Assembly (NCBI GenBank): GCA_964545715.1
Contig: CAZJHX010000029.1
Location: forward strand, 6,215 to 70,214
DNA: 64,000 nucleotides
Direction of reading: 5' to 3'
DNA from: an uncultured Myxococcales bacterium
GTDB taxonomy: Bacteria > Myxococcota_A > UBA9042 > GCA-2863065
Below are positions 1 to 63,918 of the stretch, piece after piece. A program made the translations under genes and the position numbers. The stretch's first letter is position 1, and each line of letters opens with the position of its first letter. A model generated the notes under the pieces. It had not been told where the DNA came from, ran no database searches, and worked only from the letters and a program-made list of their open reading frames with translations.

Positions 1-696
1 GCCGTACTGGTCCTGGCCGCACGTCTCGGTGACGCAGGTGGCCGGAGTCGCCGGGCAGGTGCCGGTCTTGACGGCGGTGGACAGCACTTTGCCGTCGATG
101 CCCAGGCCGTCCAGGTACATGTCGACCGAGCTGCCGTTGGCCGTGAAGCGAGCGTGACCGATGATGGCCAGCGCGCCGTCCGTGCACGACGAGTCCGCGT
201 CGCCGTCGGCTGTGGGGGCGACCAGCAGCGCGCCTGTCGAGGACGCCGCATCCAGCTCAAAGTCGCCCAGGGACTCGGCCGGCCAGTACTCGCCGCATTT
301 GTCGTCGGCTTTGAGCGAGCCCTCGGCCAGCGTCCACGCGCCGTCCTCAGCCTGCAGCACCAGCTGAAGCTGGCAGCCGTCGTCGATCGAGAACGTCGCG
401 GACAGTCGCGTGAGGCAGCCGTCACCGGCCAGATGCTCCGCGACCGCGCTCAGCTGGCGACCGTGATAGATCAAGTCGACCGCGTCGGTCCGGACAGAGC
501 CGGACGGCGTGGCCGAACAATCGAGGACGACCGGATCGTCGACCGGGTCGTCTACGGGATCATCCACGCCCGTGGCGGGCGCATTATCGTCTTTGGGTGC
601 GGTCGGCTCTGTGGAATCGCCCGCTTCGGCGCACCCGCAGATCAGCGCCACCGCAGCCGCTGCTACTACAACTACCTGTCTCAATTTTTTCTCCAA
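1..696 (-). CDS. Cys-rich secreted lipoprotein, 3'-truncated by window edge (about 232 N-terminal codons visible)
   Basis: Minus-strand frame open from window edge up to TTG at 696..694 (second in-frame TTG at 684..682). Translated N-terminus (M/L)EKKLRQVVVVAAAAVALICGC shows a basic n-region, hydrophobic core and Cys: signal peptide with lipobox-like LICGC. At least 8 further Cys downstream (DCSATPS..., DDGCQLQL..., DDKCGEYW..., TCPATPATCVTETCGQDQYG at edge). High GC3. Absent from the ORF track because no stop lies inside the window. Confidence 0.45.
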   Translation of the reverse strand, partial: MEKKLRQVVVVAAAAVALICGCAEAGDSTEPTAPKDDNAPATGVDDPVDDPVDDPVVLDCSATPSGSVRTDAVDLIYHGRQLSAVAEHLAGDGCLTRLSATFSIDDGCQLQLVLQAEDGAWTLAEGSLKADDKCGEYWPAESLGDFELDAASSTGALLVAPTADGDADSSCTDGALAIIGHARFTANGSSVDMYLDGLGIDGKVLSTAVKTGTCPATPATCVTETCGQDQYG

Positions 697-760
697 ACAG
701 TATCCGGGCGAGACCTTAACACACCGCTGTGTACGGCCACGAGCACTATATGGATCGAAA

Positions 761-2128
761 TCAGGCGTGAAGGCCCGTCCGCGTCCAGCTGCCGCTGGTG
801 TACTCACGGTGTCCCAGTGCCGCCTTGAAGATGAACGCGACCGGAAACGCGGCCCACACGCCGGCGACACCGAAGCCCAGCGGATAGCCAAAGACCCAGC
901 TGAGCGGGATCTGCAGCCAGATGGTCGTCATGAAGTTGATGCGCAGCGAGCGCATCGTCGCGCCGGCGCCGCCGAGCATGCCGGCGTACGCGATCCAGAT
1001 TCCGACAGGGGCCATGCCGACGCCGAGAATGCGCACCCAGTCGACCGCGTATGCCTCCAGCGCGGAGCCGGGCGCCACGTCGAAGATGTGCACGATGGGG
1101 TACGCCAGCGCGACGAACACGATAGCCAGCACGGTCATCACCAGCGTGCACAGGCGGCGGGCGGCGCGGACGACACGCCGGGCCTCCTCGACGTCGCCGC
1201 GACCCAGCGCGTTGCCGATCATGGCGCCGGCGCACTGCGAGATGCTCATGCCGGGCACAAACGCCAGCGACTGCACCCGGATGCCGACCCCGTGCGCCGC
1301 GACCGCGACCTCATCGATGCGACCGATAAAGGCCACGATGGAGATGAGCCCGGCGTTCAAGATGACGATGTCCCCGGCCGCAGGCCAGCCCACATCCCAC
1401 AGCTCGCGGATCAGCGGGCGGTCCATCTTGCAGATCCGCAGCGGCACCGTGATCCCGGGCACGGCTCCTCGGCGCAGCAACAAGACCATGAGCACGATCG
1501 AAAAGGCGTAAGAGATCACGGTCCCGTACGCAGCGCCCTGGACTCCCAGCGCCGGAAATCCCCAACCACCCAGGATGAAGCCGTAGTTGAGGACGATGTT
1601 GACCACGTTGGACGCGATAGCCACGGCAAACGGCAGACGCGTGTTCCCCACGCCCCGCAAAACGGCGGCGTAGAGGATGTTCATGTAAAAGAAGATGCTG
1701 CCCGTCAGCAGCGGACGCAGGTAGGCCAACCCCACGACGAGCGGCTCACCCGTCGCGCCCAGCAGCCGCAGCATCCACGGCGCCAACAGGTTGCCGACCG
1801 TTGCGACAAACAGCGCGACCAGCCCCGTGAGCTGCGTGCTCTGCATGAGTACGTGAGTGACCCGCCCCGCTTCACCCGCCCCGTGAGCGCGCGCGACCAG
1901 GGCCACGGTGCCGACGGTCAGTCCGATCATCGCGACCATCAGCAGAAACACGATCTGTGTGGAGAAGCCGAGCGCGGTGAGCGCTACTTCGGAGTCGGGC
2001 AGACGACCGCACATGGCGGTGTCGACGGCAAGTGTGATGACGGCAAGGACATTGAGACCGATGACAGGAGCAGCAAGCTCCCACAATCGCCGGGTGACCG
2101 TCCCCCGGGGGGGTGAGCCCTCGATCAA
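761..2128 (-). CDS. MATE-family multidrug/toxin efflux transporter (NorM/DinF-like), 455 aa
   Basis: 455-aa polytopic membrane protein with about 12 hydrophobic segments, typical MATE length. N-term ...RRLWELAAPVIGLNVL and central GNALGRGDVEEARRVV... resemble MATE signature regions. TTG start at 2128..2126 forms a TTGA overlap with the stop of the upstream spike gene. TGA stop at 761..763. Confidence 0.8.
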   Translation of the reverse strand: MIEGSPPRGTVTRRLWELAAPVIGLNVLAVITLAVDTAMCGRLPDSEVALTALGFSTQIVFLLMVAMIGLTVGTVALVARAHGAGEAGRVTHVLMQSTQLTGLVALFVATVGNLLAPWMLRLLGATGEPLVVGLAYLRPLLTGSIFFYMNILYAAVLRGVGNTRLPFAVAIASNVVNIVLNYGFILGGWGFPALGVQGAAYGTVISYAFSIVLMVLLLRRGAVPGITVPLRICKMDRPLIRELWDVGWPAAGDIVILNAGLISIVAFIGRIDEVAVAAHGVGIRVQSLAFVPGMSISQCAGAMIGNALGRGDVEEARRVVRAARRLCTLVMTVLAIVFVALAYPIVHIFDVAPGSALEAYAVDWVRILGVGMAPVGIWIAYAGMLGGAGATMRSLRINFMTTIWLQIPLSWVFGYPLGFGVAGVWAAFPVAFIFKAALGHREYTSGSWTRTGLHA

Positions 2129-3060
2129 CAGTTCATGTTGATCTTGCTGCCTTCCTCGTTGATCTCAGCATCGGACTTGATGTTCATCGTCGACTTGGCC
2201 TTCTGGTCCCACGTCGACTCGGTCTCCATGGCGATCTCTTTGCCCGCCTGGACGATGAACTGCTCCTCGGCCTTGATGACGATGTTCTTCTTGGCGTGCA
2301 GGACGATGTCCTTCTCCGAGTAGAGGATCATCCGCTGGTCGACACTGTCGAACTTGATGATGAGCTCACCCTTCTTGTCGGAGATCAGGATGTGCTCTTT
2401 GCCGTCCGTCATGTCGATATTGATGACGTGTGTGCCCTTCTCGCCATCGGGCACGTCGACTTTGTGCGTGTCGCCGCAGCCGATACCGCAGGCCTTGGCC
2501 TCGACCACGTCCTTGCACTCACCCAGCGCCGGCTGGTCGTATACGTTGTCGTCGCAGACCAGCGTCTGCATCACGATCTTCTCGGCCTTGTCCTTGCCGT
2601 CGTCCACAAACGCGACCATGTGGCCCGATCGCGAGCGCCAACCGCGCAGGTTGTTCTTCTTGGCTATCTGGACGCCCTTGTCCTCTTTGTTCTGCCAGAA
2701 CGGCTGATCCTTGCCGTTGTAGAGATTGGCGATGATCACCGGCTCGCGGAAGGACCCGAACAGGAAGCACACAAGTACTTCGTCATCCACCTCGGGCAAA
2801 AAGAAGCTGCCGCGCAGCTCGTCGGTCAGGCCGCCCTCGTGGGCTACCGTACCGGCCATCGGAGACGCGATACGACACCAGGTGGACGGCATGTCCTCTT
2901 TGTCCTTCACGTCGACGTACTTCTGGTCGTTCTCCATCATCCAGGGGAACTTGACCTTGACCCGATACCGCTTCTCCGGATCGACATTGTCGATCACGAT
3001 TCCCGGATACATGCCGAAGTACTGGTTTACGGGCCGCGAGGGGGCGAGAAAGGCTTCCAT
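2125..3060 (-). CDS. Phage baseplate / contractile-injection-system central spike protein (gpV / gp5-like: N-terminal OB-fold plus C-terminal triple beta-helix), 311 aa
   Basis: ATG at 3060 preceded by AGGAG (SD) 8-12 nt upstream. N-terminal YPGIVIDNVDPEKRYRVKVKFPW...STWCRIASPMAG...FFLPEVDDEVLVCFLFGSFREPVIIANLYNGKDQP matches the Phage_base_V / gp5 OB-fold consensus (G.V..DP....RV.V.......S.W.R.....AG......P.VGDEV.V.F..G....P...G.L.N). The C-terminal third is K/D/E/I-rich short beta-strand repeats (HVINIDMTDGKEHILISDKKGELIIKFDSV...IVLHAKKNIVIKAEEQFIVQAGKEIAMETES...), typical of gp5-C beta-helix needles. GC3 is high, so the lower overall GC of the gene reflects amino-acid composition rather than foreign origin. 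Confidence 0.7.
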   Translation of the reverse strand: MEAFLAPSRPVNQYFGMYPGIVIDNVDPEKRYRVKVKFPWMMENDQKYVDVKDKEDMPSTWCRIASPMAGTVAHEGGLTDELRGSFFLPEVDDEVLVCFLFGSFREPVIIANLYNGKDQPFWQNKEDKGVQIAKKNNLRGWRSRSGHMVAFVDDGKDKAEKIVMQTLVCDDNVYDQPALGECKDVVEAKACGIGCGDTHKVDVPDGEKGTHVINIDMTDGKEHILISDKKGELIIKFDSVDQRMILYSEKDIVLHAKKNIVIKAEEQFIVQAGKEIAMETESTWDQKAKSTMNIKSDAEINEEGSKINMNC

Positions 3061-3162
3061 TCAGCTACTCCTGAAAACAACGCGAGAGGGGCCACACGAA
3101 CGCGCAGACCTTAGCATATAGGGCGTCATTTGTCCAGCCCTGATCGCGGCCCTGCAACGCGT

Positions 3163-4197
3163 TCAAGGACAGGCGAGGGCCACTGAGAAGCTGGCGGTAA
3201 AGCCCGCTTTAGTGTCGACGACAAGCTGGTAACTGCGACCCTCGACAGCGTCAAAGGTGACCGTTCCATCCTCGGCCGCGGCCACACATTTGGTCGGGTC
3301 GCAGCCGAAATCGGCGTCCAATACAAAGATGGCATCGTCGGCGCCGCCCACCGTCGCGCTGACGGCCCCCGTGACCGGCGACGTAAACAGGAACGCGCGC
3401 TCCGGGCCGGTGTATCCGCTCTGCCCGCAGCCGTAGTCGCTGACCTGCTGCGTCTGCCCCGGCGTGTCCAGCGCCACGAGCAGGTTGTCCCCGCACGAGA
3501 CGGACGCCTGCTCCTTGCACTGCGCGGCTTTGATCTCCAGATCGCCACAGTCCAGCGTCAGGTCGAACGTACCCTTCGCACCCAGATAGCCGTCCACGAT
3601 CAGGTAGGCCACATCACCGCTGGCGACCTCGAACTTGCCGCCCTCGGCCGGTCCCCACAGCAGACACTGGTCCAGGTCGCAGCCGTCCTCGGCCGCCGCC
3701 AGTACATGCAGGTCCAGCGTGTCGCCGCCGGTCTCCAGCAGGACCTTGGCTTTACCCTCGCCAGGCGCCGTGAATACGAACGCGATCTCGGGCCCCGGAT
3801 AGGAGAAGGTGCTGCACTGCGTCTGGTCGACCACCTGCCCCGTCGCCGACGCTTTGGTCCCCAGCGAAAACGACTCGCCGCACTCGATGGGTACGGCCTC
3901 CCCACAGGCGCCCGCCGCAACGGTCTCCAGCACGGGTGGCGGCGGCACATCCTCAAGCGGCGTCAGATCGGGTCCCGAATCGACGAAGACGTCCGGCGGC
4001 TCGACATCCGCGGGCCCGGCGTCCGGCGGCTCAACGTCCGGCGTCGGCGTGTCCTGAGGCTGCGCCGCATCCACGGTGTCGGCGGCGGACTCGGCGTCCT
4101 CCACCTCCATCCCGTCCACGGGCTCGACCACGTCGACCGGATCGGTCTGTTCGGACGTGCACGCCACCAACAGCAGGGCCACGAGCAGGCCCCTCAC
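3163..4197 (-). CDS. Secreted lipoprotein with two tandem Cys-containing beta-sandwich (pre-peptidase C-terminal/PPC-like) domains, 344 aa
   Basis: GTG start at 4197 overlapping moeA stop (GTGA). N-term MRGLLVALLLVACTSEQ is a lipoprotein signal (lipobox LLVAC). An acidic Pro-rich spacer (DVEPPDAGPADVEPPDVF) is followed by two homologous ~95-aa segments (CSTFSYPGPEIAFVFTAPGEGKAKVLLETGGDTLDLHVLAAAEDGCDLDQCLLWGP... and YGCGQSGYTGPERAFLFTSPVTGAVSATVGGADDAIFVLDADFGCDPTKCVAAAEDG...), each ending with LTLDC/VALAC. TGA stop at 3163..3165. Confidence 0.55.
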   Translation of the reverse strand: MRGLLVALLLVACTSEQTDPVDVVEPVDGMEVEDAESAADTVDAAQPQDTPTPDVEPPDAGPADVEPPDVFVDSGPDLTPLEDVPPPPVLETVAAGACGEAVPIECGESFSLGTKASATGQVVDQTQCSTFSYPGPEIAFVFTAPGEGKAKVLLETGGDTLDLHVLAAAEDGCDLDQCLLWGPAEGGKFEVASGDVAYLIVDGYLGAKGTFDLTLDCGDLEIKAAQCKEQASVSCGDNLLVALDTPGQTQQVSDYGCGQSGYTGPERAFLFTSPVTGAVSATVGGADDAIFVLDADFGCDPTKCVAAAEDGTVTFDAVEGRSYQLVVDTKAGFTASFSVALACP

Positions 4198-5399
4198 GTA
4201 CGCAGGGTCTCCTCGTCGATCAGCACATTCAGCGTCTCGCCCTCCTCAAAGCCGGCTCGATTTGGCGGCAGCAGCGCCAGCGCGTTGGCCACCGACTGCC
4301 CCTTCAGATCCCCGCTGCCATGGGTCTTGAGAAGCTGCACGCCCTCCCCCCAGATCACGCGCGCGGGCTGGTACGTCGGTCGCCCGCGCGTGCCGCCAAA
4401 GCCGGCCAGCAGCGGCAGCGGCACCACCGGGTCGTATATGGTGGTCCGTCCGCCGAGCCCACGCAGAAGCGGCGCCAGGAACAGGCGCGCCGTTACCAGG
4501 CTGGACACCGGATTGCCGGGCAGCCCGATCACGTGCACGGCGCCCTTGCGCCCGTACCAGACCGGCTTGCCGGGCTTCATCGCCACCTTGTGAAAGACCT
4601 GCTCCACGCCCTCGGCGATCAGGCACTGCGCCACGTAGTCGTACTCGCCGGCGCTGACCCCGCCGCTCAGCACCAGCACGTCAGCCGTCAGCGCCTGCGC
4701 GATGGCCTGCCGCGTGGCGTCGATGTCGTCACGCACGATCTCGCTGCGCACCACCACGCCGCCCGCGCGCGTGATGACCTGCCCGATCGTGCAGCGGTTG
4801 GAGTCGCGGATCTGCGTTGGCCCCGGCATCTCGTGCAGCTCGACCAGCTCGTCACCCGTCGTCAGCACCGCCACCCGGGGCCGCCGTACAACCGCGGGCT
4901 CGGCGGCGCCAAACGACCAGCACACGCCCAGACGCCCGCTGGTCAGCACCGCGCCCGCCGGGACGGCCACCGCGCCCGCCCGCACGTCCTGCCCTTGCTC
5001 CGCGATGTGCTGCCCTGCCCGGACCGCCTCGGTGATCGTGACCGTCTCGCCGGTGCAGCTGGTCTTCTCCACCATCTGCACCGCGTCCGCCCCGGCCGGA
5101 ACGGGCGCGCCCGTCATGATGCGAATCGCTTCTCCCGCGACCAGGGTGTGGTCCGACATCGCGCCCGCCTGCACCTCGCCCACGATCCGCAGCGTGCAGG
5201 GCGCCTGGTCCGCATCGGCGCTCCGAACCGCAAAGCCGTCCATCGCCGAGCGATTGAATGGTGGCTGGTCCCGGTCCGCGAGTACGTCCTCAGCGAGCAC
5301 GCGCCCTGCGGCCTCGGCCAGCGGGATGCGCTCGGCGGACAGAGCCTTCACGTCGCCGTGAACGGCAGCCAATGCGTCTGTGATGCTTATATGCGCCAT
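4194..5399 (-). CDS. moeA: Molybdopterin molybdenumtransferase MoeA (molybdenum cofactor biosynthesis), 401 aa
   Basis: ATG at 5399, TGA at 4194..4196. Classic MoeA blocks: FNRSAMDGFAV (N-domain), VAVLTTGDELVE, LVLSGGVSAGEYDYV and VIGLPGNPVSSLVT (MoCF/MPT-binding domain). Length typical for the family. Confidence 0.88.
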   Translation of the reverse strand: MAHISITDALAAVHGDVKALSAERIPLAEAAGRVLAEDVLADRDQPPFNRSAMDGFAVRSADADQAPCTLRIVGEVQAGAMSDHTLVAGEAIRIMTGAPVPAGADAVQMVEKTSCTGETVTITEAVRAGQHIAEQGQDVRAGAVAVPAGAVLTSGRLGVCWSFGAAEPAVVRRPRVAVLTTGDELVELHEMPGPTQIRDSNRCTIGQVITRAGGVVVRSEIVRDDIDATRQAIAQALTADVLVLSGGVSAGEYDYVAQCLIAEGVEQVFHKVAMKPGKPVWYGRKGAVHVIGLPGNPVSSLVTARLFLAPLLRGLGGRTTIYDPVVPLPLLAGFGGTRGRPTYQPARVIWGEGVQLLKTHGSGDLKGQSVANALALLPPNRAGFEEGETLNVLIDEETLRT

Positions 5400-5432
5400 A
5401 GCGCGGCATTTTACACGACCAGGCGACCCAAA

Positions 5433-6977
5433 CTACCAGGCGACCTCGAGGTTGGTCCGAATCTTAGCGATGGTCCCCAGGGACGCGCTGCCGTCCGGCG
5501 CCTCAAACGCACCGCCAGGTAGGAAGACGCCGGCCTGCACGCCCACCTTGACCGCCACCGCGCCGCGCACGTCGATCGTGTGGTGAATCGCCGCATCCAG
5601 CTCGGTGCCCAGGAAGCGGGAGTCCGACGCGTCGATGCCCAGATAGTTGAAGTTGTAGCCACCGTTCTGCGCGGCCACCCACGGGTCGGTGAAATCCGCA
5701 TCCGACCACGCGACCAACGCGCCCAGGTCGATACCCAGGCCAAAGTCGGCTTTCCAACGCAACACAGGGTTGACGTAGATCGCATTCGTGACTTTGCCGT
5801 CCGTAGCGACCAGCTCCACGCCCTTGGGCGGCGAGCCCGACACGCTCGGGTCGCGGATGCGATCAACCGAGTTCGCGGAGATGCGCGCAACGACCTCGCG
5901 GAAGAGGATCATCCCCACCTGATAGCCGGGGTCAAAGCTGAAGCTGCGCACGGTGTCGTCATTGCGATCGTTGTCACCGCTCGCGTAGCCGGCCTCCAGC
6001 CGCGCCTCCAGCCCCAGATCCTGCAGCTCCAGCCGGCTGCGAAATACCGCGCCCAGCCCCAGCACGTCCACGCCGTCAGGCGCCTGCTCCAGGGCAACCC
6101 GTGTCGTGTGCGCGCTGATCAGCGCCACCTCAGCGCCCAGCGTCAGCTTGGCGTGAATCGAATCAAACGCGGTCGACCACTTCACGAAGAAGTCGTAGGC
6201 CTGGGCGGTGAGCGTGTCGTCGTCGGCGTCCTCCTGGTCGCGGAAGGCCATGTAGACCCCGGCCGTCAGGTCGTCGGTGCGGTAGTTGATGGAGACGACG
6301 CCCTGCATCGCGAAGTCGCCGTCGATCAGGTTGGCGTTGTCGTCGCGAAACACCACGTCGAAGCCACCGGCCAGGATGAACGCGTCGCCAAAGGCGTTAT
6401 CCAGCGCCTTGAACGGCTTTGTCGCAAACAGCGCCCGCTCCACCAGGTCACCGGTGCGCGGGCTGTCAAAGACGCTGTGGTCCTCGTCGTCGCCGTTGTT
6501 GGCAACAAGCCCGTACCCGTATTGCGAGGTCTGCTGGCCGATGCGGATGAGCCCGATCGGCGACGTCCAGCTCATGTAGAGCGCACGCAGGTCCGTGGCA
6601 TTGGGCTGGGCAAACGCATCCAGGCGGTCGGTTCGCTCCAGCAGATAGTCCTGACCGCCCGCCCCCAGGTCACCGAACAGCTGCCCCGTCAACAAGTCGG
6701 CCTCGGCCTCGATGAAGAAGGTCTTGCCAAACGTGATCCGCGGCTTGATCCGCCACCGCTGCACACCGAGATCGATCACATCGTGCTCGTTGCCCTGGGC
6801 GTCCAGCGCAAAGTTGGTGTTGCGGATGTAGTGCAGCTCATAGCGACCGGGAATGCAGACCGTGACCGTGCAGCCCTTTGAGCGCTCGATGAGCGTCTCC
6901 TTCACGTCCTGCGCGCCGGCGGACGGCGCGACCACGCACGCGACCAGGCACACCGAAAACAGGCTCCAAAAGCGCAC
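5433..6977 (-). CDS. Putative outer-membrane beta-barrel protein of unknown function (Sec signal peptide; C-terminal aromatic residue), 514 aa
   Basis: GTG start at 6977 with SD GGAGGG at 6983..6988 (complement), 5-nt spacer. N-term MRFWSLFSVCLVACVVAPSAGAQD has a signal peptide with AGA-Q cleavage. Alternating amphipathic beta-strand-like stretches with Gly/Asp/Asn-rich turns. Terminal ...RTNLEVAW is an OMP-type C-terminal aromatic signature. TAG stop at 5433..5435. Confidence 0.5.
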   Translation of the reverse strand: MRFWSLFSVCLVACVVAPSAGAQDVKETLIERSKGCTVTVCIPGRYELHYIRNTNFALDAQGNEHDVIDLGVQRWRIKPRITFGKTFFIEAEADLLTGQLFGDLGAGGQDYLLERTDRLDAFAQPNATDLRALYMSWTSPIGLIRIGQQTSQYGYGLVANNGDDEDHSVFDSPRTGDLVERALFATKPFKALDNAFGDAFILAGGFDVVFRDDNANLIDGDFAMQGVVSINYRTDDLTAGVYMAFRDQEDADDDTLTAQAYDFFVKWSTAFDSIHAKLTLGAEVALISAHTTRVALEQAPDGVDVLGLGAVFRSRLELQDLGLEARLEAGYASGDNDRNDDTVRSFSFDPGYQVGMILFREVVARISANSVDRIRDPSVSGSPPKGVELVATDGKVTNAIYVNPVLRWKADFGLGIDLGALVAWSDADFTDPWVAAQNGGYNFNYLGIDASDSRFLGTELDAAIHHTIDVRGAVAVKVGVQAGVFLPGGAFEAPDGSASLGTIAKIRTNLEVAW

Positions 6978-7119
6978 GACGACCCTCCAACCATGGCTAA
7001 TCGGCGCGACCCTACCAAGTACCTGCGATCACCGCAATCCGGCCCCCTTGAAACGGCCCCCTCAGTGTGGTTCAGTACCGTGTTCCTCTATCGTGGGCGG
7101 GGAGATTTAACCAACTCGG
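6978..7119. promoter_or_regulatory. 142-bp divergent intergenic region between the minus-strand OMP gene and the giant plus-strand gene; must hold both promoters
   Basis: Only non-coding stretch adjacent to the giant ORF. SD for the minus gene at 6983..6988. Candidate sigma70-like -35 TTGAAA at 7048..7053 with a weak -10 (TTCAGT 7071..7076, 17-nt spacer). GGGGAG at 7099..7104 is the only purine-rich SD-like element upstream of ATG 7120. No experimental support; motifs are weak. Confidence 0.3.
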
Positions 7120-10100
7120 ATGACCCCTGAAGACCTGTCTTCAGCCATCGCGACTCTACAGGCGTTGGCAAAGAAGAAGGACGCCGCAGGCCTGATCGAA
7201 AAGGCTGCGAGCGGTCCCGGAGCACTGCGCCGCCGTGCGTTGGACGCGCTCGTCCAACTGGGTCCCAAAGCCTCAAAAACGCTGGCCGACAAGGCCGCCA
7301 AAGGGGAGCCGCCCGAGCGCGCAGCAGCCATTGCAGCCATCGGATTGGCCGCGGGCAAGAACGCGGTCAAGCTGCTGTCAAAAGCCCTGACCGACGACGA
7401 TGTGGGCGTGCGCCGCGAGGCCGCGCTGGGCCTGGGACGGGTCGGTGACGACAAGAGCGTCAAGGCGCTGAACACCGCGCTGGAGGACACCTCGCCCAGC
7501 GTCCGTGCGTCCGCAGCGTGGGCCCTCTCACAGGTCGGCGGCGGCAGCGCCAAGGGACTGCAGCGCCTCGCCGGCTCCCGGTACGTGACCCTGCGGGCCA
7601 GCTCGCTGGCCGCTCTAGCGCGCGCGGGCGTGGACGACGTCGACGATGAGGTGATCGACGGCAGCCTGGCCGACGGGTCACGCGTCGTACGCCGCAACGC
7701 CGTGGCTCTGGCGTCCCTGCAGAATGTGGGCGCCTCCGCCCGGCTGCATCACTCGCTCAGCGACCGCTGCCCACTGGTTCGCCGCGAGGCGGCCGGCGGG
7801 TTCAAGGCCCCGGACGACGCGATCGAGAACGCCCTGGTCAGCCTGCTGCACTCCGATCCGGACCCCGAGACGCGCCGCGCCGCCGTCCGCAGCCTCGGCA
7901 GCCGCACCAGCGAACGCGCCCGAGACATGCTGGCTCGCGCGCTGGTCGACGACGACGACGCCGTGCGCCGCGAGGCCTCCCGGGTCCTGGAGGGCGATGG
8001 GACCAAGGAAGAGCAGCTGGTCGCCCGTCACTGGGTGCAGCAAGAGCGCTGGGACCGATGCCTCGAGGCCGGTGAGACCGCCGTGCCGGCCCTGCTGGAG
8101 GCCGCCGCCGCCCCCTCCCGGACACGCCGGGACGTCAACAACCGCATTCACGCCATCGGCGTGATCGGCGCTCTTGGGGCCAAGGCCGCGGTGAAGACCC
8201 TGCTGGCGCAGCTCGGCGAGCAAGACGGCCGTGTCCGGGCTGCGTGCCTGCAGGCGCTGGCGCAGATCGGCGACAAGAAGGCTCACGACGCGGCCCAGAA
8301 GCTGACCGCGGACCACGACGCCGCTGTTCGAGGTGCGGCGGCGCTGTGCCTCGGCGCGCTGGGCACCGACAAATCCGCCCAGTGGATCGAGCCTCTGCTC
8401 GCCGATTCAGACCCGGGTGTGCGCCGTGACGCGGTCCGCGCGCTGGGCCGGCTCGGTGCGCTGGACGTGCTCAGCGAGCTGACCCGTGCGCCTGAGCCGG
8501 ACATCCGGGCCGAGGCGATGGGCTTCCTGGGCGCCACGGGCAGCCTGGACGCGCTGGAGCCCGTGCTGATGCGCCTGGGCGACCCGGACTCCGCCGTACG
8601 ACAGGCCGCAGAGGCGGCGCTGCGGTCGCTGAGCTGGCTGCCGGTCGGGCTGCCGTCGGGTGCGCCGGGTGCAGGCTTCAGCCGATGGATGTCACGCCGG
8701 GACTGGGTCGAGGACAAGGACAAGCGCGACGCCCTGACCGTGCTGCGCGATGGGCTGAAGCACAAATCGCCGGCGTATCGCCGCGCGGCGATCGAAGCGC
8801 TGGAGGCGGAGCGAGACCTGGACGCGCTGCCGGCGCTGCGCAAGAGCCTGGACGACCCGGACGCCGACGTCCGCCTGACCGCGGCGATCGCCTGCGTGGC
8901 GCTTGGGGAGGCGACCGGCAAGGGGCCGGCGTGGGCGGCGTATCACATTCACAAGGGGCGCTGGGACGGCGCGGCGGCGCTGGGCGCGGATGCGGTACAG
9001 GCGCTCAAGACCCCGCTGGCGGCGCAGCGACCGTCGCACCGGCGCGAGGCGGCGCTTGCGCTGGGCAAGACCGGCGAGCTGGCCGCCGTGGAGCCGCTGC
9101 TGGGCGCGCTGGAGGACCCTGAGGACCCGGTTCGGCTGGCCGCGGTGCAGGCGCTGGGAGTCCTGGCGCGGACCGCCAAGAAGGCGCCGGTGGCGGACAT
9201 CGCGACGGCACTGGCGCAGCGGCTGGACGACGCGGCACGCTCTGTGGGCGACGAGGCGATCGTGGTGCTGGTCGACATGGGCAAGCCCGCCATCGACCCG
9301 GCGCTGGCGGCGCTGACCCAGCTTCAGGGGGCGGGGCGCGCGGGCGCGGCGGCGGTGCTGGGCGGCCTGGCTCACAAGCCGGCGGCCGGTGCGTTGGCGT
9401 TGGCCCTGGCTGACGACGACTCGCCGGTAGCGCGCGGAGCCTGTGCCCGGGCGCTGGGCGCCATCGGGGATAAGAAGCAGGTGCCGGCGCTGATCGGGGC
9501 CCTGGCGGACCGCTTCTACGGCGTGCGAGAGGCGGCTGCCGAGGCGCTGGGCGCGTGCGGCTGGAAGTCCGATCCCGCCGTATTGGCCGTGGCCGACAAC
9601 CTGGCTAAGGAGCGCTGGGAGTCGCTGTGGGATGCGCCGCCCAAGAGCGTGGGCGTGCTGCTGGCGTGCCTGGCGGACCCGTCGCGCAATCCGCTGTCCA
9701 ACCGACGGCGAGCGCGCGTCGCCGAAGCGCTGGGCCGCATGGGCGCCAAGGACGCAGCCGGCGCGCTGCGAGGTGTTCTAGGCGACATGATCCAGGAGGT
9801 GCGCTGGGAGAGCGCCAAGGCGCTAGCCCGCTTGGCCGACGCCGACAGCGTGCCCGCCCTGACCGCCGCGCTGCAGCACGCAGATCCTGAGACCACGCGG
9901 CAGGCCACCATCGCGCTGGGCGCCATGGCCGGCCAGGCGGCGGACGATGGGCTGGCGCTGGCCCTGACCAACGCCTTCGGGCCGACGCGGATGCACGCCG
10001 CCGTTCTCCTCGGAGAGCGCGGCGTCGACAAGGCGGCCGCCGGCCTGGTGGAGCGCCTGGACGACACACACGCGCCGACCCATGAGGCAGCGGAGATCGC

Positions 10101-59181: not shown

Positions 59182-62100
59182 GTGGCTGATCAGCCCCAAG
59201 CACTGCCCACCGAAGCCGCGGCGACGGCCCTCGCCGGCCGCCTGGCCGACGCGGATCCAGCCGTTCGCCGCGCTGCAGGGGACGCATTGGCCCTGTTTGG
59301 CGCCCACGGACTGGCGCGGCTGAAGGAGGGCCTGGCCCACGAGACGGCCGAGGCCCGCGAGGCCGCGGCCGGGGCGATCGGGCGCGGCGCGCTGAAGGAT
59401 GCGCTGGGCGACGTGGTGGCCGCGTTTACCGACGGTGCGGCGTCCGTGCGCCTGGCCGCTATCACGTCGGCGGCGCAGCTTTCGGGCGGTGGCGATGGCC
59501 TGAAGCAGGTCCTGGTCGATGACGACGACCCCGATGTGCGACGCGCCGCGGCTCACGCGCTCGCGACGGTGGCCCCCGACGGGACGGAGCCGGCGCTGAT
59601 CGCGGCGCTGGGCGATGAGGCGGTTCGTCAGACTGCGCTGGCTTCTCTGGATACGATCGGCTGGGTCCCCGACTCGGCGATTGGAGAGGCGATTCTGGCC
59701 ATGGCTCGGCGGGATTGGGCGGCGCTGGTGGCGCTGGGCGACACCTCGGTGCCGCTGCTTGAGCGGGCGCTGTCGGATCGCTCGCCGGACAAGGGCAGCG
59801 TGCTGCTGCGGGCATCGATGATCGAGGCGCTGGGCAAGATCGGCAGCGCGGACGCGACTCGCGCGGTCGAGGCCTGCCTGAACGACATCGGCGGACCGGC
59901 ACGGGCGCAGGCGACCCGGGAGATTGGCCGGCTGCACGCCCACGCGGCCAGGGGCACGGGTGCTGTGCTTCAGGCGTTGCTACGCGACGATCCGCAGGGG
60001 CGGGTGCGCGTCGGGGCCGCGACCGCGCTGGGCATGATGCGATACACGGCCGCCACCGACGACCTGCGCACGGCGGCAGAGGGCGACACCGAGCCGACGG
60101 TGCGACTGGCCGCCGCGGAGGCGCTAGCCGGCATCGGCGAGACCGGGCTGCTGGTTGACCAGCTGAAGAGCACGTCCCACGAGGTGCGACGCCGAGCGGC
60201 GGTCAAGCTGGGTGAGCTGGAAGCGGCCGAGGCGATCGACCCGCTGATCGGCGCTCTTGGCGACGCCTACGCGACGGTGCGAGCGGCTGCCTTTGAGGCG
60301 CTGCGGCGCATTGGCTGGACACCCGTGGGCGTGAAGCGCGACCCGGACGACCCACGCTATTCGCGTTGGATGACGCGGGCGGAGCAGGAGGCCCGAACCG
60401 GGATCACGGCGGCAGACCAGGGCAAGATGCTGGCCAGTGACCTGGCTGCCGACGATCCGCTGGTGCGGCAGGCGGCGCTGGAGGCGCTGGCGATGCGCCA
60501 CGATCCAAAGCTGGCGGCGCTGGCGACGCCGATGTTGGAGGATCCGGTTCTTCAGGTGCGGGAGGCAGCCGCCGAGACGCTCCAGACGCTGGACGCCGTC
60601 CCGACGGACGGGGCCGCCGGCGCAGCCTGGAAGATCGCCATGCGCGATATGCAGGGCGCGGCGATGATGGGCGAGGTGGCCAAGCCCGCGCTACTGCGTG
60701 TGCTGCGCGACAACGACTCTGACGACCGCGCAGAGGCGGTGCGGACGCTGGCGATGCTGGGCGGCGAGGACGCGGAGGATGCGCTGATCACCGCGTTGGT
60801 GGATCCCACGCCGTTCGTGCGGGTGAACGCGGCGCTGTCGCTGGGGATCGCAGGCGGGAAGCGCGCGGTGCCGGCCCTGGCGCCGCTGCTGGCCAACGAT
60901 CACTCCACGGTGCGCACCGCGGTGGGCCGCACGCTGTCGACGATGGGCAAGTCGGGACTCGAGGCGCTGGTCGCTGCGCTGTCACATGATGCGGACGTCG
61001 CTCGAGCGGCGGCGGCGCGCGCGCTGAAGACAGCAGGCGAGGACGCCAACGCAGCGGCGGGCAAGCTGATGGGCCTGTTGGCGGGCGATCTCAGCGAGAG
61101 CGTGAGGGTTGCCGCGGCGGAGGCGCTGGCCGGCATGCCGGGGCCGTACCCCACCCTGTCGGTGGCCGCGCTGCGGGACGACTCCTGGCGGGTGCGACAG
61201 AAAGCGGCGGCGGCGCTGGGCACGACGGCGCCGGAGGGAGCCGCCGAGGTGCTGGTGCGCTGTCTGGGCGACAGCTACTCAGGCGTGCGGACGGCGGCGC
61301 TCAAAGCGCTGGACCAGGTCGGCTGGAAGCCCGAGGGCGACGTCGGCGACGCGATGGTCCGACTGGCCCAGGAGGACTGGCGCGGGCTGGCGCGCGTCGG
61401 GCCGGCGGCGATCGACCTGCTCGGCCAGACCTTGATCGAGAAGGGGCCCGACAAGATCGCCGTGGAGCGGCGGGTGCGCGCTATCGAGACGGTCGAGGCG
61501 ATCGGATTGGAGCACTCGCCTCCCGGCCTGGCTGACGCGCTGCGACCGACGCTGGACGACGTCGCCGGGCCGGTGCGCGCCGTGGCTGCCCGTGCGTGCG
61601 GGCGGCTGGGCTTGACCGAGCTGGGGCCGCGGCTGCTGGAGATGGCGGCGGAGGATCCGCACGAATACGCCCAGGTCTGCGCGGCAGCGGGGCTGGGACG
61701 CGCCGGTAACGACACCATGGCCGAGAAGCTGCACGAGATCGCGACGACAGCGGTATCTCCCAATGTCCGCCTGGCAGCGTGTCGGGCGCTGGCAGGGCCC
61801 GCGGTCGGGGATATCGCGCTGCTGATCGTGGCGCTGCGCGCGCCCGAGCCGGAGGTGCGCCAGGCGGCCGCGAAGGACCTGGGAGAGATCGGCAACCAGC
61901 AGGCAATCGAGCCGCTGATCGACACGCTGGGGGACGCCGTGGCGTGGGTGCGGGCGGCGGCACGCACCTCCCTGGAGCAGCTCGGATGGCAGCCGGTTGG
62001 GATCAAGGCGGAAGGAGCGGCCGGCTATCGGCGGTGGCTCACACTGCGCGAGATTGGCGGAGACGGGGACAACGCGGTCGATCAGGGCGCGCTGTTGATC

Positions 62101-63918
62101 GAGGCGCTGACGCACGCGCTGCCGGAGGTGCGACGCGGGGCGCTGGAGGCGCTGGGGGACCGAGGAGAGGCCGCGTGCGCAAAGGCGATCCTACCGCTGT
62201 TGGACGACGTGGAGCAGATGGTGCGGCGCGAGGCCGGTCTGACGCTGCAGGCGTTGAAGGCGCTGCCGAAAAGTGGACACGCCAGTGCAGCCGCGTTGGT
62301 CGCCCTGGGACGGATGAGCGACGCGGTCGCGCTGGGTAAGGACGCTGTGCCCTCGCTGCTGCGCGCGCTGGCTGAGCACGGGCCGGAGGACAGGGAGGCC
62401 GTTGTCTCGGCGCTGGCCGGCACCGCGGACAAGGGCGCGATCACGGCGGTGGTGGGAGCGCTGGCGGATGACGTCGCGGCGGTCCGTGCGGCGGCGGTAG
62501 TGAGCTACGCGGACAGCGCAGGCGAGAAGGGCGTCGACAAGCTGGCCGCGCTGATCGCGGACTCGGACGACAGAGTGAGAGCGACCTGCGCAACGACGCT
62601 GGCCGGACTGGGCAAGAAGGGCGTGGAGGCGCTAAAGACCGCGCTGGCCGAGGGCGACGGGGATGTGCGCGTGGCCGTGATACGGGCCATCGGGGCGCTG
62701 GAGAAGCCGGGGCCAAAGCTGATCACCGCCATCGCCAAGCGCGTGCGGGCCGACACCGACGCCGACGTGCGGGTGGCCGCGATCGTCGTACTGACCGGCG
62801 CGATCGGCGTCAACGCGCTGGACGTACTGGCAGAGCGACTGCGTGAAGACGAGTCGTTCCTGGTGCGGGAGGCGGCGGCGACCGCGATCGGCGACGTCAA
62901 TCCCAAGGGCATCGCCGAGCTGCTGGTGCCCGCGCTGGGCGACGAATACAGCGAGGTGCGCGAAGCGGCGCTGACCGGGCTGGCGGCATCGGGCTGGGAG
63001 CCTCAGGACGGCGTTACAAGAGCGACGCTGGCCCTGGCGGCGCAGGACTTTGCGACGCTGGCCACGATCGGAGCGGACGCGGCGCCGCTGATCGTCCAGA
63101 TGCTGACGGAGAAGTCGAGCGCTCCCGACGCCCAGAAGAAGCGCGCCGAGGCGGTCCGGTGCCTGGGCAAGATAGGCGGCCCGGTCGCGGAGGGCGCGGT
63201 GCTGGAGGGGTTTGAAGACCCATCGGCGCGGGTGCGCGCGGCGGCGGCGGACGCGTCTGCGTGGCTTGGCCTGAAGGCGGCGGCGGATGCGCTGATCGCA
63301 GCGCTGGAGGGCGACAGCGACTACCGGGCGCGCGCTCGTGCGGCCAGCGCCATCGGGGTGCTGGGCCTCGTGGAGGCCGCGCCGGTGCTGTCCCTTGCGG
63401 CGAGCCAGGACGATGATCCGACGGTGCGCAGCGCCGCGGCGATCGCGCTTGCCGGACCGGGGATAGGTGACCTCGAGCGGCTGATCCATCAACTCGGTGA
63501 CAGCGACGCCAACGTGCGACAGGAGGCGGCCCTGGAGCTGGGCCGGCTGGGCAACCCACGCGCGCTCGACCCGCTGATCAGCGCGCTGTCCGACGCCTAC
63601 TCTCCCGTGCGCACCGCGGCCAAAGAGTCGCTGAGCAAGCTGGACTGGGTCCCGTTTGGCGCGCGACGCACGCCTCAGTCCAAGGGCTATGACCGGTGGG
63701 TCCTGCGCCAGGAGCTCCTGCCCAAGGACGAGACGACGCCTCAATTGGACGTACTGATCGGCGCCATCAACCTGCCGGACCCCACCTTGCGGCGGGCGGT
63801 GGCCGAGGCCTTCGGGTTGCGAGGCGACAAGTCCGCGGCCAAGCACCTCAAGCAGATGCTCAAGGACGCCGACCCCGCGGTCATCGAGGTCGCCAAGGCC
63901 GCACTCGACTCTCTATAG
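59182..63918 (+). CDS. HEAT-repeat protein, 1,578 aa, continuing the same repeat array (more diverged terminal units)
   Basis: GTG at 59182 directly abuts TAA of the giant ORF, in the same reading frame. A purine-rich stretch (aagggg aag aag aag) 4-18 nt upstream could act as SD. Translation is again D-P-x-x-x-V-R-x-A-A HEAT units. Contains the array signatures at unchanged spacing (…IDPLIGALGDAYATVRAAAFEALRRIGWTPVGVKRDPDDPRYSRWMTRAEQEARTG at about 60250-60400; …GYRRW at 62023; …GYDRW at 63685). TAG stop at 63916..63918. Confidence 0.7.
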   Translation: MADQPQALPTEAAATALAGRLADADPAVRRAAGDALALFGAHGLARLKEGLAHETAEAREAAAGAIGRGALKDALGDVVAAFTDGAASVRLAAITSAAQLSGGGDGLKQVLVDDDDPDVRRAAAHALATVAPDGTEPALIAALGDEAVRQTALASLDTIGWVPDSAIGEAILAMARRDWAALVALGDTSVPLLERALSDRSPDKGSVLLRASMIEALGKIGSADATRAVEACLNDIGGPARAQATREIGRLHAHAARGTGAVLQALLRDDPQGRVRVGAATALGMMRYTAATDDLRTAAEGDTEPTVRLAAAEALAGIGETGLLVDQLKSTSHEVRRRAAVKLGELEAAEAIDPLIGALGDAYATVRAAAFEALRRIGWTPVGVKRDPDDPRYSRWMTRAEQEARTGITAADQGKMLASDLAADDPLVRQAALEALAMRHDPKLAALATPMLEDPVLQVREAAAETLQTLDAVPTDGAAGAAWKIAMRDMQGAAMMGEVAKPALLRVLRDNDSDDRAEAVRTLAMLGGEDAEDALITALVDPTPFVRVNAALSLGIAGGKRAVPALAPLLANDHSTVRTAVGRTLSTMGKSGLEALVAALSHDADVARAAAARALKTAGEDANAAAGKLMGLLAGDLSESVRVAAAEALAGMPGPYPTLSVAALRDDSWRVRQKAAAALGTTAPEGAAEVLVRCLGDSYSGVRTAALKALDQVGWKPEGDVGDAMVRLAQEDWRGLARVGPAAIDLLGQTLIEKGPDKIAVERRVRAIETVEAIGLEHSPPGLADALRPTLDDVAGPVRAVAARACGRLGLTELGPRLLEMAAEDPHEYAQVCAAAGLGRAGNDTMAEKLHEIATTAVSPNVRLAACRALAGPAVGDIALLIVALRAPEPEVRQAAAKDLGEIGNQQAIEPLIDTLGDAVAWVRAAARTSLEQLGWQPVGIKAEGAAGYRRWLTLREIGGDGDNAVDQGALLIEALTHALPEVRRGALEALGDRGEAACAKAILPLLDDVEQMVRREAGLTLQALKALPKSGHASAAALVALGRMSDAVALGKDAVPSLLRALAEHGPEDREAVVSALAGTADKGAITAVVGALADDVAAVRAAAVVSYADSAGEKGVDKLAALIADSDDRVRATCATTLAGLGKKGVEALKTALAEGDGDVRVAVIRAIGALEKPGPKLITAIAKRVRADTDADVRVAAIVVLTGAIGVNALDVLAERLREDESFLVREAAATAIGDVNPKGIAELLVPALGDEYSEVREAALTGLAASGWEPQDGVTRATLALAAQDFATLATIGADAAPLIVQMLTEKSSAPDAQKKRAEAVRCLGKIGGPVAEGAVLEGFEDPSARVRAAAADASAWLGLKAAADALIAALEGDSDYRARARAASAIGVLGLVEAAPVLSLAASQDDDPTVRSAAAIALAGPGIGDLERLIHQLGDSDANVRQEAALELGRLGNPRALDPLISALSDAYSPVRTAAKESLSKLDWVPFGARRTPQSKGYDRWVLRQELLPKDETTPQLDVLIGAINLPDPTLRRAVAEAFGLRGDKSAAKHLKQMLKDADPAVIEVAKAALDSL

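What the first reader, a model, noticed from the sequence alone, without database searches (positions are those of the whole stretch)
2125..3060. Orphan contractile-injection-system/phage spike gene (gpV/gp5-like) translationally coupled to a MATE efflux transporter
The gene is a 311-aa OB-fold plus beta-helix spike with a strong AGGAG SD. Its TGA stop overlaps the TTG start of the MATE gene (tcaa at 2125-2128, TTGA on the coding strand). There is no sheath, tube, baseplate wedge, PAAR or T6SS gene anywhere in the 64-kb window.

GC3 is host-like, so this is a domesticated or long-resident gene, not a fresh prophage remnant. A lone spike coupled to an exporter is an unusual pairing. It could be a satellite spike for an eCIS or T6SS encoded elsewhere (alternative tip or cargo adaptor), or a spike fold co-opted for something else. 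The adjacent PPC-domain lipoprotein lies on the same strand, 100 bp upstream.
Basis: partly seen in the sequence, partly recalled or inferred. Interest (0 to 1): 0.55.

Follow-up and report, generated by a model that had tools for sequence, protein, structure and literature searches.

The report
Stand-alone injection-system spike gene
This is a real, long-resident gene for the needle-tip ("spike") protein of a phage-tail-like injection machine, belonging to a Myxococcota family that always sits apart from the rest of any such machine; its position next to a drug-efflux pump looks like a local accident.

Summary
The ORF at 2125-3060 (-) is a genuine 311-aa gp5/gpV-type spike. Pfam Phage_base_V scores E 3.6e-17. 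The AlphaFold model (pLDDT 86.6) best matches the spikes of AlgoCIS, Anabaena CIS and Bacteroides T6SS. It lacks the gp27/GPD hub domain, so it is not a canonical VgrG.

No sheath, tube, hub, baseplate, PAAR or DUF2169 gene occurs anywhere in the 64-kb window. GC3 is host-like (0.865).

The gene belongs to a monophyletic family of 257-313-aa spikes from uncultured Myxococcota. About 39 distinct loci all lack CIS core genes within 8-10 kb, whereas about 112 short homologues all sit in eCIS clusters next to a hub gene.

Fifteen orphan loci carry PAAR and/or the T6SS spike-tip chaperone DUF2169 directly downstream. The family therefore still looks like an injection spike serving a machine encoded elsewhere.

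The MATE pairing occurs only in this organism. In the close clade the conserved neighbours lie upstream (porin-like protein, MoeA, lipoprotein). The TTGA overlap is real, but the MATE start is ambiguous.

The last ~55 codons of this spike (its tip) are unusually divergent.

Verdict: observation confirmed, MATE coupling incidental, satellite-spike reading favoured but unproven. Interest is moderate.

The parts
2125..3060 (-). Spike gene: a 311-aa protein with a gp5/gpV-type OB-fold (residues ~18-165), a clade-specific insert (~166-210) and a C-terminal beta-helix (~205-311). It has no gp27/GPD hub domain.
   Evidence: Pfam PF04717 E 3.6e-17. AlphaFold pLDDT 86.6. Foldseek matches to CIS and T6SS spikes. 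NCBIfam VgrG models match only their C-terminal OB part, at 40-88 bits against cut-offs of 122-275.
2125..2290 (-). Divergent spike tip (last ~55 codons). It is 27-33% identical to orthologues, whereas residues 1-180 are 83-97% identical to the nearest orthologue (L008). The other clade members share a nearly invariant end, GGTMTCKGGPDIQLNP.
   Evidence: Identity in 30-residue blocks. Nucleotide identity to L008 falls from 0.70-0.88 to about 0.5 at about 2281.
3068..3072 (-). Shine-Dalgarno AGGAG, 7 nt upstream of the ATG.
   Evidence: Read directly from the sequence. Also present as AGGAG/GGAGG in L002, L003 and L005.
3108..3136 (-). Putative own promoter: TGGACA, 17 nt, TAAGGT. This is inferred and weak.
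   Evidence: The motif GG(C)TGGACAAA...GTGCTA(A/C)G(G/T)T is shared by the window, L003 and L008 in otherwise unalignable upstream DNA. The consensus scan did not call it.
761..2128 (-). MATE efflux transporter gene (455 aa from TTG 2128, or 441 aa from TTG 2086). It is a neighbour, not a conserved partner.
   Evidence: TIGR00797 scores 229.8 bits against a cut-off of 147.4. PF01554 E 2.4e-47. Adjacent to the spike only in the window and L001.
3163..4197 (-). Lipoprotein of 344 aa with two Cys-containing repeats. A variable 212-360-aa gene occupies the same position in clade relatives.
   Evidence: Signal peptide ...LLLVAC. No Pfam hit. Homologues lie upstream of the spike in L003, L007 and L008. 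Genes of similar size (360 and 359 aa), not tested for homology, occupy this position in L175 and L176.
4194..5399 (-). MoeA (molybdopterin molybdotransferase-like). It is a conserved upstream neighbour of the spike.
   Evidence: MoeA_N E 1.9e-44, MoCF_biosynth and MoeA_C. Upstream on the same strand in L003, L005, L008, L018, L021, L101, L171, L176 and L177.
5433..6977 (-). Secreted porin-like protein of 514 aa, the start of the conserved same-strand array.
   Evidence: Signal peptide and C-terminal ...EVAW. Homologues in L002, L003, L005, L018, L021 and L171; genes of similar size in the same position in L176 and L177. The L021 homologue has a weak Alginate_exp hit.

Best explanation
The gene encodes a stand-alone, hub-less membrane-piercing spike subunit. 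It would trimerise through its OB-fold and intertwined beta-helix and cap the tube or hub of a contractile injection machine (T6SS-like or eCIS-like) whose other genes lie elsewhere in the genome.

It belongs to one old, vertically inherited Myxococcota lineage of spikes. That lineage branched from eCIS-type gpV spikes, left the CIS gene cluster once, and in many members still carries its tip partners (PAAR and the DUF2169 spike-tip chaperone) immediately downstream. In the window's clade those partners are no longer adjacent. The gene is the last member of a conserved porin-like / MoeA / lipoprotein array.

The MATE gene behind it is a lineage-specific arrival. It may be co-transcribed or even translationally coupled, but it has no conserved functional link to the spike. 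The replaced C-terminal tip suggests that this particular spike pairs with a different tip or cargo protein from its relatives.

Shown: fold and domain, absence of CIS genes locally, the family-wide orphan state, PAAR/DUF2169 linkage in relatives, purifying selection, and non-conservation of the MATE neighbour.

Inferred: trimer formation, use by a distant CIS, and the meaning of the tip divergence.
For: Spike identity.

Orphan versus clustered homologues:
- About 112 distinct short homologues (and hub-spike fusions) from cyanobacteria, Chloroflexota, Acidobacteriota, haloarchaea and others lie in eCIS clusters. Where the contig reaches, the spike directly follows a Phage_GPD hub gene.
- All 37 long-form Myxococcota-type sequences lack sheath, tube, hub, gp25 and Baseplate_J within 8-10 kb.

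Single origin: the orphans form one clade in an NJ tree rooted on an eCIS spike (bootstrap 35/40), and the window clade is recovered in 40/40.

Tip partners in relatives:
- PAAR lies 3-19 nt downstream on the same strand in L018, L021, L101, L103, L110 and L140.
- DUF2169 (Pfam E 1e-50 to 1e-54) lies directly downstream in L018, L020-L023, L096, L098-L100, L101 and L107.
- DUF2169 is an experimentally characterised chaperone of T6SS VgrG spike-tip complexes (PMC11883445).
- Myxococcota VgrG/PAAR/DUF2169 islands have been reported (PMC13392464).
- L018, L021 and L101 combine MoeA upstream with PAAR and DUF2169 downstream, which links the window's synteny to the cargo-module form.

Selection and residence: dN/dS 0.13-0.53 with all orthologues intact; host-like GC3.

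MATE: adjacent only in the window and L001.
Against: - No CIS or T6SS has been shown in this organism. Only 64 kb is available, and the related MAGs could not be searched as whole genomes.
- The protein lacks the gp27/GPD hub domain. It therefore cannot replace a canonical T6SS VgrG on its own, and no separate hub gene lies near any orphan.
- In the window's own clade (9 loci) neither PAAR nor DUF2169 is nearby.
- In another subclade the gene sits between nuo and hflX (8 loci). That looks more like a housekeeping gene than a weapon island.
- The CIS profiles used were of eCIS type. T6SS-specific core proteins were checked only through Pfam annotations of called genes.
Confidence: 0.6

Rival explanations
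1. Co-opted spike fold. The family has lost its link to any contractile machine and now does something else in the cell, for example as a structural or regulatory trimer, and is inherited like a core gene.
For: None of about 39 orphan loci has CIS core genes nearby. Housekeeping synteny is stable: nuoA <- -> spike -> hflX in 8 loci and MoeA -> spike in at least 10 loci. There is no hub domain and no hub gene. The OB domain is strongly conserved, with 47 invariant columns in 32 sequences.
Against: Fifteen family members keep PAAR and/or DUF2169 immediately downstream. These genes have no known role outside CIS spikes. The fold is an unmodified spike that matches CIS spikes along its whole length. 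There is no signal peptide or added domain that would suggest a new function.
Confidence: 0.2
2. Relic. The window's copy is a decaying leftover of a former spike-PAAR-DUF2169 island, still intact but no longer used.
For: PAAR and DUF2169 are absent from the whole window. The C-terminal tip is much more diverged than the rest of the protein.
Against: The ORF is intact in every clade member. dN/dS against the nearest orthologue is 0.22. A good SD is present. Residues 1-180 are 83-97% identical to an orthologue whose flanks are unalignable. The tip still aligns as beta-helix and is modelled with pLDDT of about 87-91 over residues 261-300.
Confidence: 0.12
3. Functional spike-MATE unit. The two genes are translationally coupled because they work together.
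For: There is a 4-nt TTGA overlap if TTG 2128 is the start. No terminator-like site lies between the genes. MATE profile alignments reach upstream of the alternative start.
Against: The pairing is seen in one organism only, and in none of about 38 other family loci. JGI's gene call uses TTG 2086. Neither TTG has a well-placed SD. A 12-TM inner-membrane antiporter has no known or plausible interaction with a cytoplasmic spike trimer.
Confidence: 0.05

Closest known systems
Split eCIS spike (a Phage_base_V protein of about 215 aa encoded directly after a Phage_GPD hub, e.g. the Leptothermofonsia cluster L012; fused forms are Alg8/Cis8 7aef_q and All3320 7b5h_AJ)
   Same: These are the closest homologues in sequence (28-46% identity) and the best fold matches (E 1e-12, TMq 0.57-0.59). 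They share the OB-fold plus beta-helix architecture without a hub domain.
   Different: The eCIS spikes sit inside complete sheath/tube/baseplate clusters next to their hub gene. The window's gene and its whole clade do not. The orphans are 40-100 aa longer, with inserts in the OB domain and before the helix.
T6SS orphan vgrG islands (vgrG-PAAR/PIPY-DUF2169-effector, e.g. the P. aeruginosa vgrG1b cluster; Sachar et al. 2025, PMC11883445)
   Same: A spike gene located away from the main machine genes. Relatives carry PAAR and DUF2169 directly downstream. The variable C-terminal tip resembles the cargo-specifying ends of VgrG.
   Different: There is no gp27-like hub half: VgrG models match only at positions ~359-502, far below their cut-offs. 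The PAAR partner is canonical PAAR (PF05488), not DUF4150/PIPY. In the window itself there is no PAAR, DUF2169 or effector.
Phage P2 gpV / R2-pyocin spike (3qr8, 4s37)
   Same: A stand-alone spike protein without a hub domain, with an OB-fold plus trimeric helix. Foldseek E 2e-5 to 4e-3.
   Different: Similarity is much weaker (TMq about 0.27). No phage or tailocin genes surround the window's gene. No metal-binding apex domain was identified.
PAAR_H2-associated vgrG genes with no T6SS or eCIS nearby (Zhang et al. 2021, PMC8651086)
   Same: A published note describes vgrG-like genes next to PAAR with no injection-system genes in the neighbourhood.
   Different: I could not test whether that group includes this family.

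Membership tests
Phage_base_V / gp5 OB-fold spike superfamily (PF04717) | OB-fold domain scoring above the Pfam gathering threshold | tested here: met
   62.9 bits against 23.8, E 3.6e-17, residues 18-114, covering the full model 1-75.
Phage_base_V / gp5 OB-fold spike superfamily (PF04717) | C-terminal beta-helix that continues from the OB domain | tested here: met
   Foldseek aligns 290-306 columns of the 311-residue model to CIS and T6SS spikes. PDB sequence alignments of residues 219-300 match VgrG helix repeats. The DUF2345 hit is only 17.9 bits, below its cut-off of 30.7.
Phage_base_V / gp5 OB-fold spike superfamily (PF04717) | Homotrimer | not testable with these tools
   Only monomer prediction is available. 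Residues 249-311 are modelled confidently but without intrachain strand pairing, as expected for an intertwined helix. This is an inference.
T6SS VgrG / TssI (TIGR03361, TIGR01646) | N-terminal gp27-like hub half (Phage_GPD) | tested here: not met
   The protein has only 311 aa. The models match only at positions ~359-490, scoring 39.8 and 44.2 bits against cut-offs of 186 and 122. No Phage_GPD hit.
T6SS VgrG / TssI (TIGR03361, TIGR01646) | Genetic linkage to T6SS core, PAAR or adaptor genes | tested here: not met
   None in the window. PAAR and/or DUF2169 are present in 15 relatives, but not in the window clade.
eCIS spike (Afp8/Pvc8/Cis8 or split hub + spike) | Encoded inside a sheath-tube-baseplate cluster, next to or fused with the hub | tested here: not met
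   No hits to seven eCIS core profiles in the window or in about 39 orphan loci. The same profiles hit all ~112 short-form loci.
eCIS spike (Afp8/Pvc8/Cis8 or split hub + spike) | Spike fold most similar to Cis8-type proteins | tested here: met
   7aef_q E 1.1e-12 and 7b5h_AJ E 4.5e-12.
Phage P2 gpV-type spike | C-terminal apex with a buried metal site, in a phage or tailocin context | tested here: inconclusive
   Weak fold match to 3qr8 (E 3.5e-3, TMq 0.27). The protein ends right after the helix (…KINMNC). One weak hit in 50,697 phage records. The metal site was not examined.
MATE efflux transporter (neighbouring gene) | Full-length match above the curated cut-off | tested here: met
   TIGR00797 229.8 bits against 147.4, residues 21-425.

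The most novel reading that the evidence does not exclude
Uncultured Myxococcota carry a distinct class of hub-less 'mini-VgrG' spikes. They have eCIS ancestry but are paired with T6SS-type tip partners (PAAR, DUF2169), and they have become fixed as a vertically inherited, core-like single gene. They would either be fired by a machine of unusual composition, with the hub supplied by a separate protein not yet recognised, or act without any sheath-tube machine.
Probability: 0.15. Interest if true: 0.65.

Novelty: new variant of a known kind. Interest (0 to 1): 0.36.

Why it matters
Orphan vgrG islands are routine in T6SS biology, and spike genes inside eCIS clusters are routine too.

Less expected is a whole, monophyletic Myxococcota lineage of hub-less spikes of eCIS descent with three properties. 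They are never clustered with a machine. They are embedded in housekeeping synteny. In many members they are joined to PAAR and the T6SS chaperone DUF2169.

If a matching machine exists, the family would show how spike-tip modules move between eCIS-type and T6SS-type systems, and how they are maintained as separate loci. If no machine exists, it would be a case of a spike fold reused for another purpose.

For genome annotation, the practical lesson is that 'phage tail protein' labels on these genes do not indicate prophages. The MATE neighbour should not be read as a functional partner.

Tried and rejected
- **Rfam scan of 1-7200 at E<=1:** no RNA family, so there is no riboswitch in the conserved ~110-nt gap upstream of the spike.
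- **Consensus promoter/terminator scan:** no promoter call, and no terminator between the spike and MATE genes.
- **Metagenome scan with the single protein:** found nothing.
- **Pfam on neighbours:** the upstream lipoprotein, the 514-aa porin-like protein, the ~1090-aa protein, the genes downstream of MATE in L001, and the genes after DUF2169/PAAR in relatives gave no informative family and no recognisable effector. The one exception is an RF-1 domain in L103.
- **Prophage-remnant idea:** rejected on host-like GC3, synteny, purifying selection and the near absence of phage homologues.
- **Canonical VgrG membership:** rejected, because the hub half is absent.
- **CIS/T6SS elsewhere in the same genome:** I could not test this.
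Full report
**1. The observation**

The minus-strand ORF 2125-3060 encodes 311 aa. It starts at an ATG that is preceded by AGGAG (3072-3068) with a 7-nt spacer.

Sequence evidence that it is a spike:
- Pfam finds a full-length Phage_base_V OB-fold domain at residues 18-114 (62.9 bits, cut-off 23.8, E 3.6e-17). It also finds a sub-threshold DUF2345 beta-helix match at 248-290.
- PHROGs gives only baseplate and spike families.
- PDB sequence hits are the OB plus helix parts of Bacteroides T6SS VgrG (8gra, 9jg8), Streptomyces CIS, AlgoCIS, Anabaena CIS, Pvc8 and Afp8.

Structural evidence:
- An AlphaFold2 model built on a 57-sequence alignment has mean pLDDT 86.6 and pTM 0.77.
- Foldseek against the PDB returns spikes almost exclusively among its significant matches (E <= 0.001). 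These are AlgoCIS 7aef_q (E 1.1e-12, TMq 0.57), Anabaena CIS 7b5h_AJ, Bacteroides VgrG 9jg9/8gra, Streptomyces 9gtr, PVC, AFP, the R2-pyocin spike 4s37 and P2 gpV 3qr8.

NCBIfam VgrG models match only their C-terminal OB region (model positions ~359-502) and score far below their cut-offs. The protein is therefore the gp5/gpV half of a spike without the gp27/GPD hub half.

**2. The overlap with the MATE gene**

The MATE ORF (TIGR00797, 229.8 bits) can start at TTG 2128.

The start is not certain:
- JGI's call on an essentially identical contig (L001) starts at the next TTG, 2086. This gives a 441-aa protein and a 38-nt gap.
- Several MATE profile alignments begin at residues 9-15 of the long form. 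This mildly favours the long form.
- Neither TTG has a well-placed SD.
- No terminator-like hairpin separates the two genes, so co-transcription is plausible either way.

**3. Orphan status in the window**

I built profiles by jackhmmer from the eCIS cluster that surrounds a cyanobacterial homologue (L012), iterated over >100 clusters. These profiles cover sheath, tube, LysM-tube, GPD hub, gp25, Baseplate_J, Tail_P2_I, Pvc16, AAA ATPase, PAAR and DUF2169. They hit nothing in any frame of the 64 kb except the spike itself.

The real genes around the spike are:
- the MATE transporter;
- a lipoprotein with no Pfam hit, so 'PPC domain' is not confirmed;
- MoeA;
- a 514-aa secreted porin-like protein;
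- a 17,353-aa HEAT-repeat ORF followed by a second HEAT-repeat ORF.

GC3 of the spike is 0.865, against 0.84-0.88 for its neighbours. Its lower total GC (0.58) reflects a composition rich in K, D, I and N.

**4. The family**

The protein search found about 34 homologues of 293-312 aa at 48-73% identity. It also found a much larger set of 257-280 aa at 32-41%. Essentially all come from Myxococcota MAGs. Beyond these lie ~215-aa 'phage tail protein / baseplate assembly protein V' sequences from cyanobacteria and other phyla.

I collected 177 loci from gene look-ups, one genome-collection scan and one metagenome scan. I scanned their ORFs with the CIS profiles. The result is a clean split:
- About 112 distinct short-form or hub-fused homologues lie in eCIS clusters wherever the contig is long enough. 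The spike gene directly follows the Phage_GPD hub gene and usually precedes PAAR and gp25.
- All 37 distinct long-form sequences, plus three more loci looked up later, have no sheath, tube, hub, gp25, Baseplate_J or Tail_P2_I within 8-10 kb.

In a neighbour-joining tree rooted on an eCIS spike, the orphans form one clade (35/40 bootstraps). The window's clade is recovered in 40/40. Detachment from the CIS cluster therefore looks like a single old event followed by vertical inheritance.

**5. What sits next to the orphans**

(a) Window clade, nine distinct loci at 51-74% identity. The conserved genes lie upstream on the same strand: a ~510-aa porin-like protein, often a ~1,090-aa protein, MoeA, usually a 212-360-aa lipoprotein or methyltransferase, then a gap of about 80-190 nt (about 110 nt in most loci), then the spike. 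A giant gene lies divergently upstream in several loci. The downstream gene differs in almost every locus:
- MATE here;
- an AMP-binding enzyme in L002;
- convergent methyltransferases in L007/8 and L176, and a convergent gene with no Pfam hit in L003;
- unknown genes in L005, L175 and L177.

(b) A second subclade (L011, L016, L017, L019, L024, L025, L027, L097) has nuoA <- -> spike -> hflX.

(c) Fifteen loci carry spike-tip genes:
- PAAR (PF05488) lies 3-19 nt downstream in L018, L021, L101, L103, L110 and L140, and 1.2 kb away on the other strand in L013.
- DUF2169 (Pfam E 1e-50 to 1e-54) lies directly downstream, or just after PAAR, in L018, L020-L023, L096, L098-L100, L101 and L107.
- L018, L021 and L101 have MoeA upstream and PAAR plus DUF2169 downstream. 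The MoeA-spike junction of the window is therefore the same junction seen in spikes only 33-36% identical that still carry their tip module.
- DUF2169 was found in none of the eCIS loci.

**6. Literature**

- DUF2169 proteins co-occur with T6SS VgrG and PAAR-like DUF4150 (PIPY) domains. They act as chaperones that keep VgrG-tip complexes secretion-competent (Sachar et al. 2025, PMC11883445).
- VgrG/PAAR/DUF2169/OB-fold gene groups have been noted around COMMD-like genes in cultured Myxococcota (PMC13392464).
- A survey of PAAR genes reported one PAAR group that lies next to vgrG genes with no T6SS or eCIS genes nearby (PMC8651086).
- I found no description of this hub-less family itself.

**7. 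State of the window's copy**

- All clade orthologues are intact. Pairwise dN/dS is 0.13-0.53, and 0.22 against the nearest orthologue.
- Nucleotide identity to that orthologue (L008) is 0.70-0.88 across most of the CDS, whereas both flanks are at background level.
- There are two exceptions. One is a short insert that is unique in having an extra ACGIGC motif. The other is the last ~55 codons.
- In that tip region identity falls to 27-33% at the protein level, although the other clade members are nearly identical there (…GGTMTCKGGPDIQLNP).
- In VgrG-type spikes the C-terminal end is where PAAR, adaptors and cargo bind (established knowledge of T6SS). The divergent tip, together with the different downstream DNA, is what a 3'-end replacement would leave. 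This is an inference.
- A motif resembling a promoter (TGGACA, 17 nt, TAAGGT; 3136-3108) is shared with L003 and L008 in otherwise unalignable upstream DNA. The consensus scan does not call it.
- No Rfam family matches the region.

**8. Interpretation**

The most likely reading (about 0.6) is that this is a functional, stand-alone spike subunit used by a contractile injection machine encoded elsewhere. It belongs to a Myxococcota lineage of hub-less spikes that left the CIS cluster long ago.

The MATE neighbour is incidental. It is seen in one organism out of about 39 distinct loci.

The main rival (about 0.2) is that the family has been co-opted for a CIS-independent role. This would fit the housekeeping-like synteny and the lack of any hub. 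It is hard to reconcile with the recurrent PAAR and DUF2169 partners.

A relic (about 0.12) and a true spike-MATE functional unit (about 0.05) are less likely.

**9. Limits**

- Only 8-10 kb around each homologue could be read, and many contigs are short.
- ORFs in the loci were called naively.
- The CIS profiles are of eCIS type. T6SS core genes were excluded only through Pfam annotations of called genes.
- The tree is a distance tree.
- The key question, whether the same genome has a CIS or T6SS, could not be addressed with the tools and caps available.

**10. Verdict**

- Observation: confirmed.
- Interpretation: partly supported. It is a spike, it is orphan and it is domesticated. The satellite-spike reading is plausible. 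The MATE coupling is not meaningful.
- Novelty: a new variant of a known kind, namely a hub-less, always-detached spike lineage with T6SS-type tip partners.
- Interest: moderate (0.36).

Noticed in passing
window 7120-59181 (+) and 59182-63918 (+): A single uninterrupted ORF of 17,353 aa made of HEAT/PBS-lyase-like repeats. The repeats are arranged in long super-repeats with Lys-rich linkers. It is followed immediately by a second HEAT-repeat ORF of 1,578 aa. Giant genes occupy the same divergent position in relatives (L001, L005/6, L176). This is among the largest bacterial ORFs.
   Followed up: no
window 2125-2290 (-): The last ~55 codons of the spike (its tip) are only 27-33% identical to orthologues, whereas residues 1-180 are 83-97% identical to the nearest orthologue (L008). 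The other clade members share a nearly invariant tip. This suggests a 3'-end replacement together with the downstream DNA.
   Followed up: partly
window 2462-2521 (-), residues ~181-199: A Cys-rich stretch (ECKDVVEAKACGIGCGD) containing a 6-residue insertion that is found only in this protein and not in the other 56 aligned family members.
   Followed up: no
L018 11.2-13.3 kb, L021 11436-13577, L022 10907-13294: The DUF2169 proteins next to orphan spikes are 710-800 aa long. Their DUF2169 domain is split by a long Lys/Glu-rich (coiled-coil-like) insert, and they have a Lys-rich tail. In L020, L023, L096 and L098-L100 the protein is the usual ~380-400 aa.
   Followed up: no
L103 3995-6487 (+): An 830-aa protein directly after spike-PAAR carries a C-terminal RF-1 (peptidyl-tRNA hydrolase-type) domain, E 2.4e-15. 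It is a possible effector candidate.
   Followed up: no
window 3163-4197 (-): The upstream lipoprotein contains two ~130-aa Cys-containing repeats of the same pattern but has no Pfam hit even at E<=1.
   Followed up: partly
L011, L016, L017, L019, L024, L025, L027, L097: In a second subclade the orphan spike always lies between a divergent nuoA operon and a downstream hflX gene (19-169 nt, same strand). This is a strikingly housekeeping-like setting for a spike gene.
   Followed up: partly
window 2615 region compared with P0001/L001: The JGI contig Ga0105015_1002675 (18.7 kb) encodes the same protein with one difference (…GHMGAF… against …GHMVAF… in the window). The window therefore comes from a second, longer assembly of nearly the same organism.
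   Followed up: no
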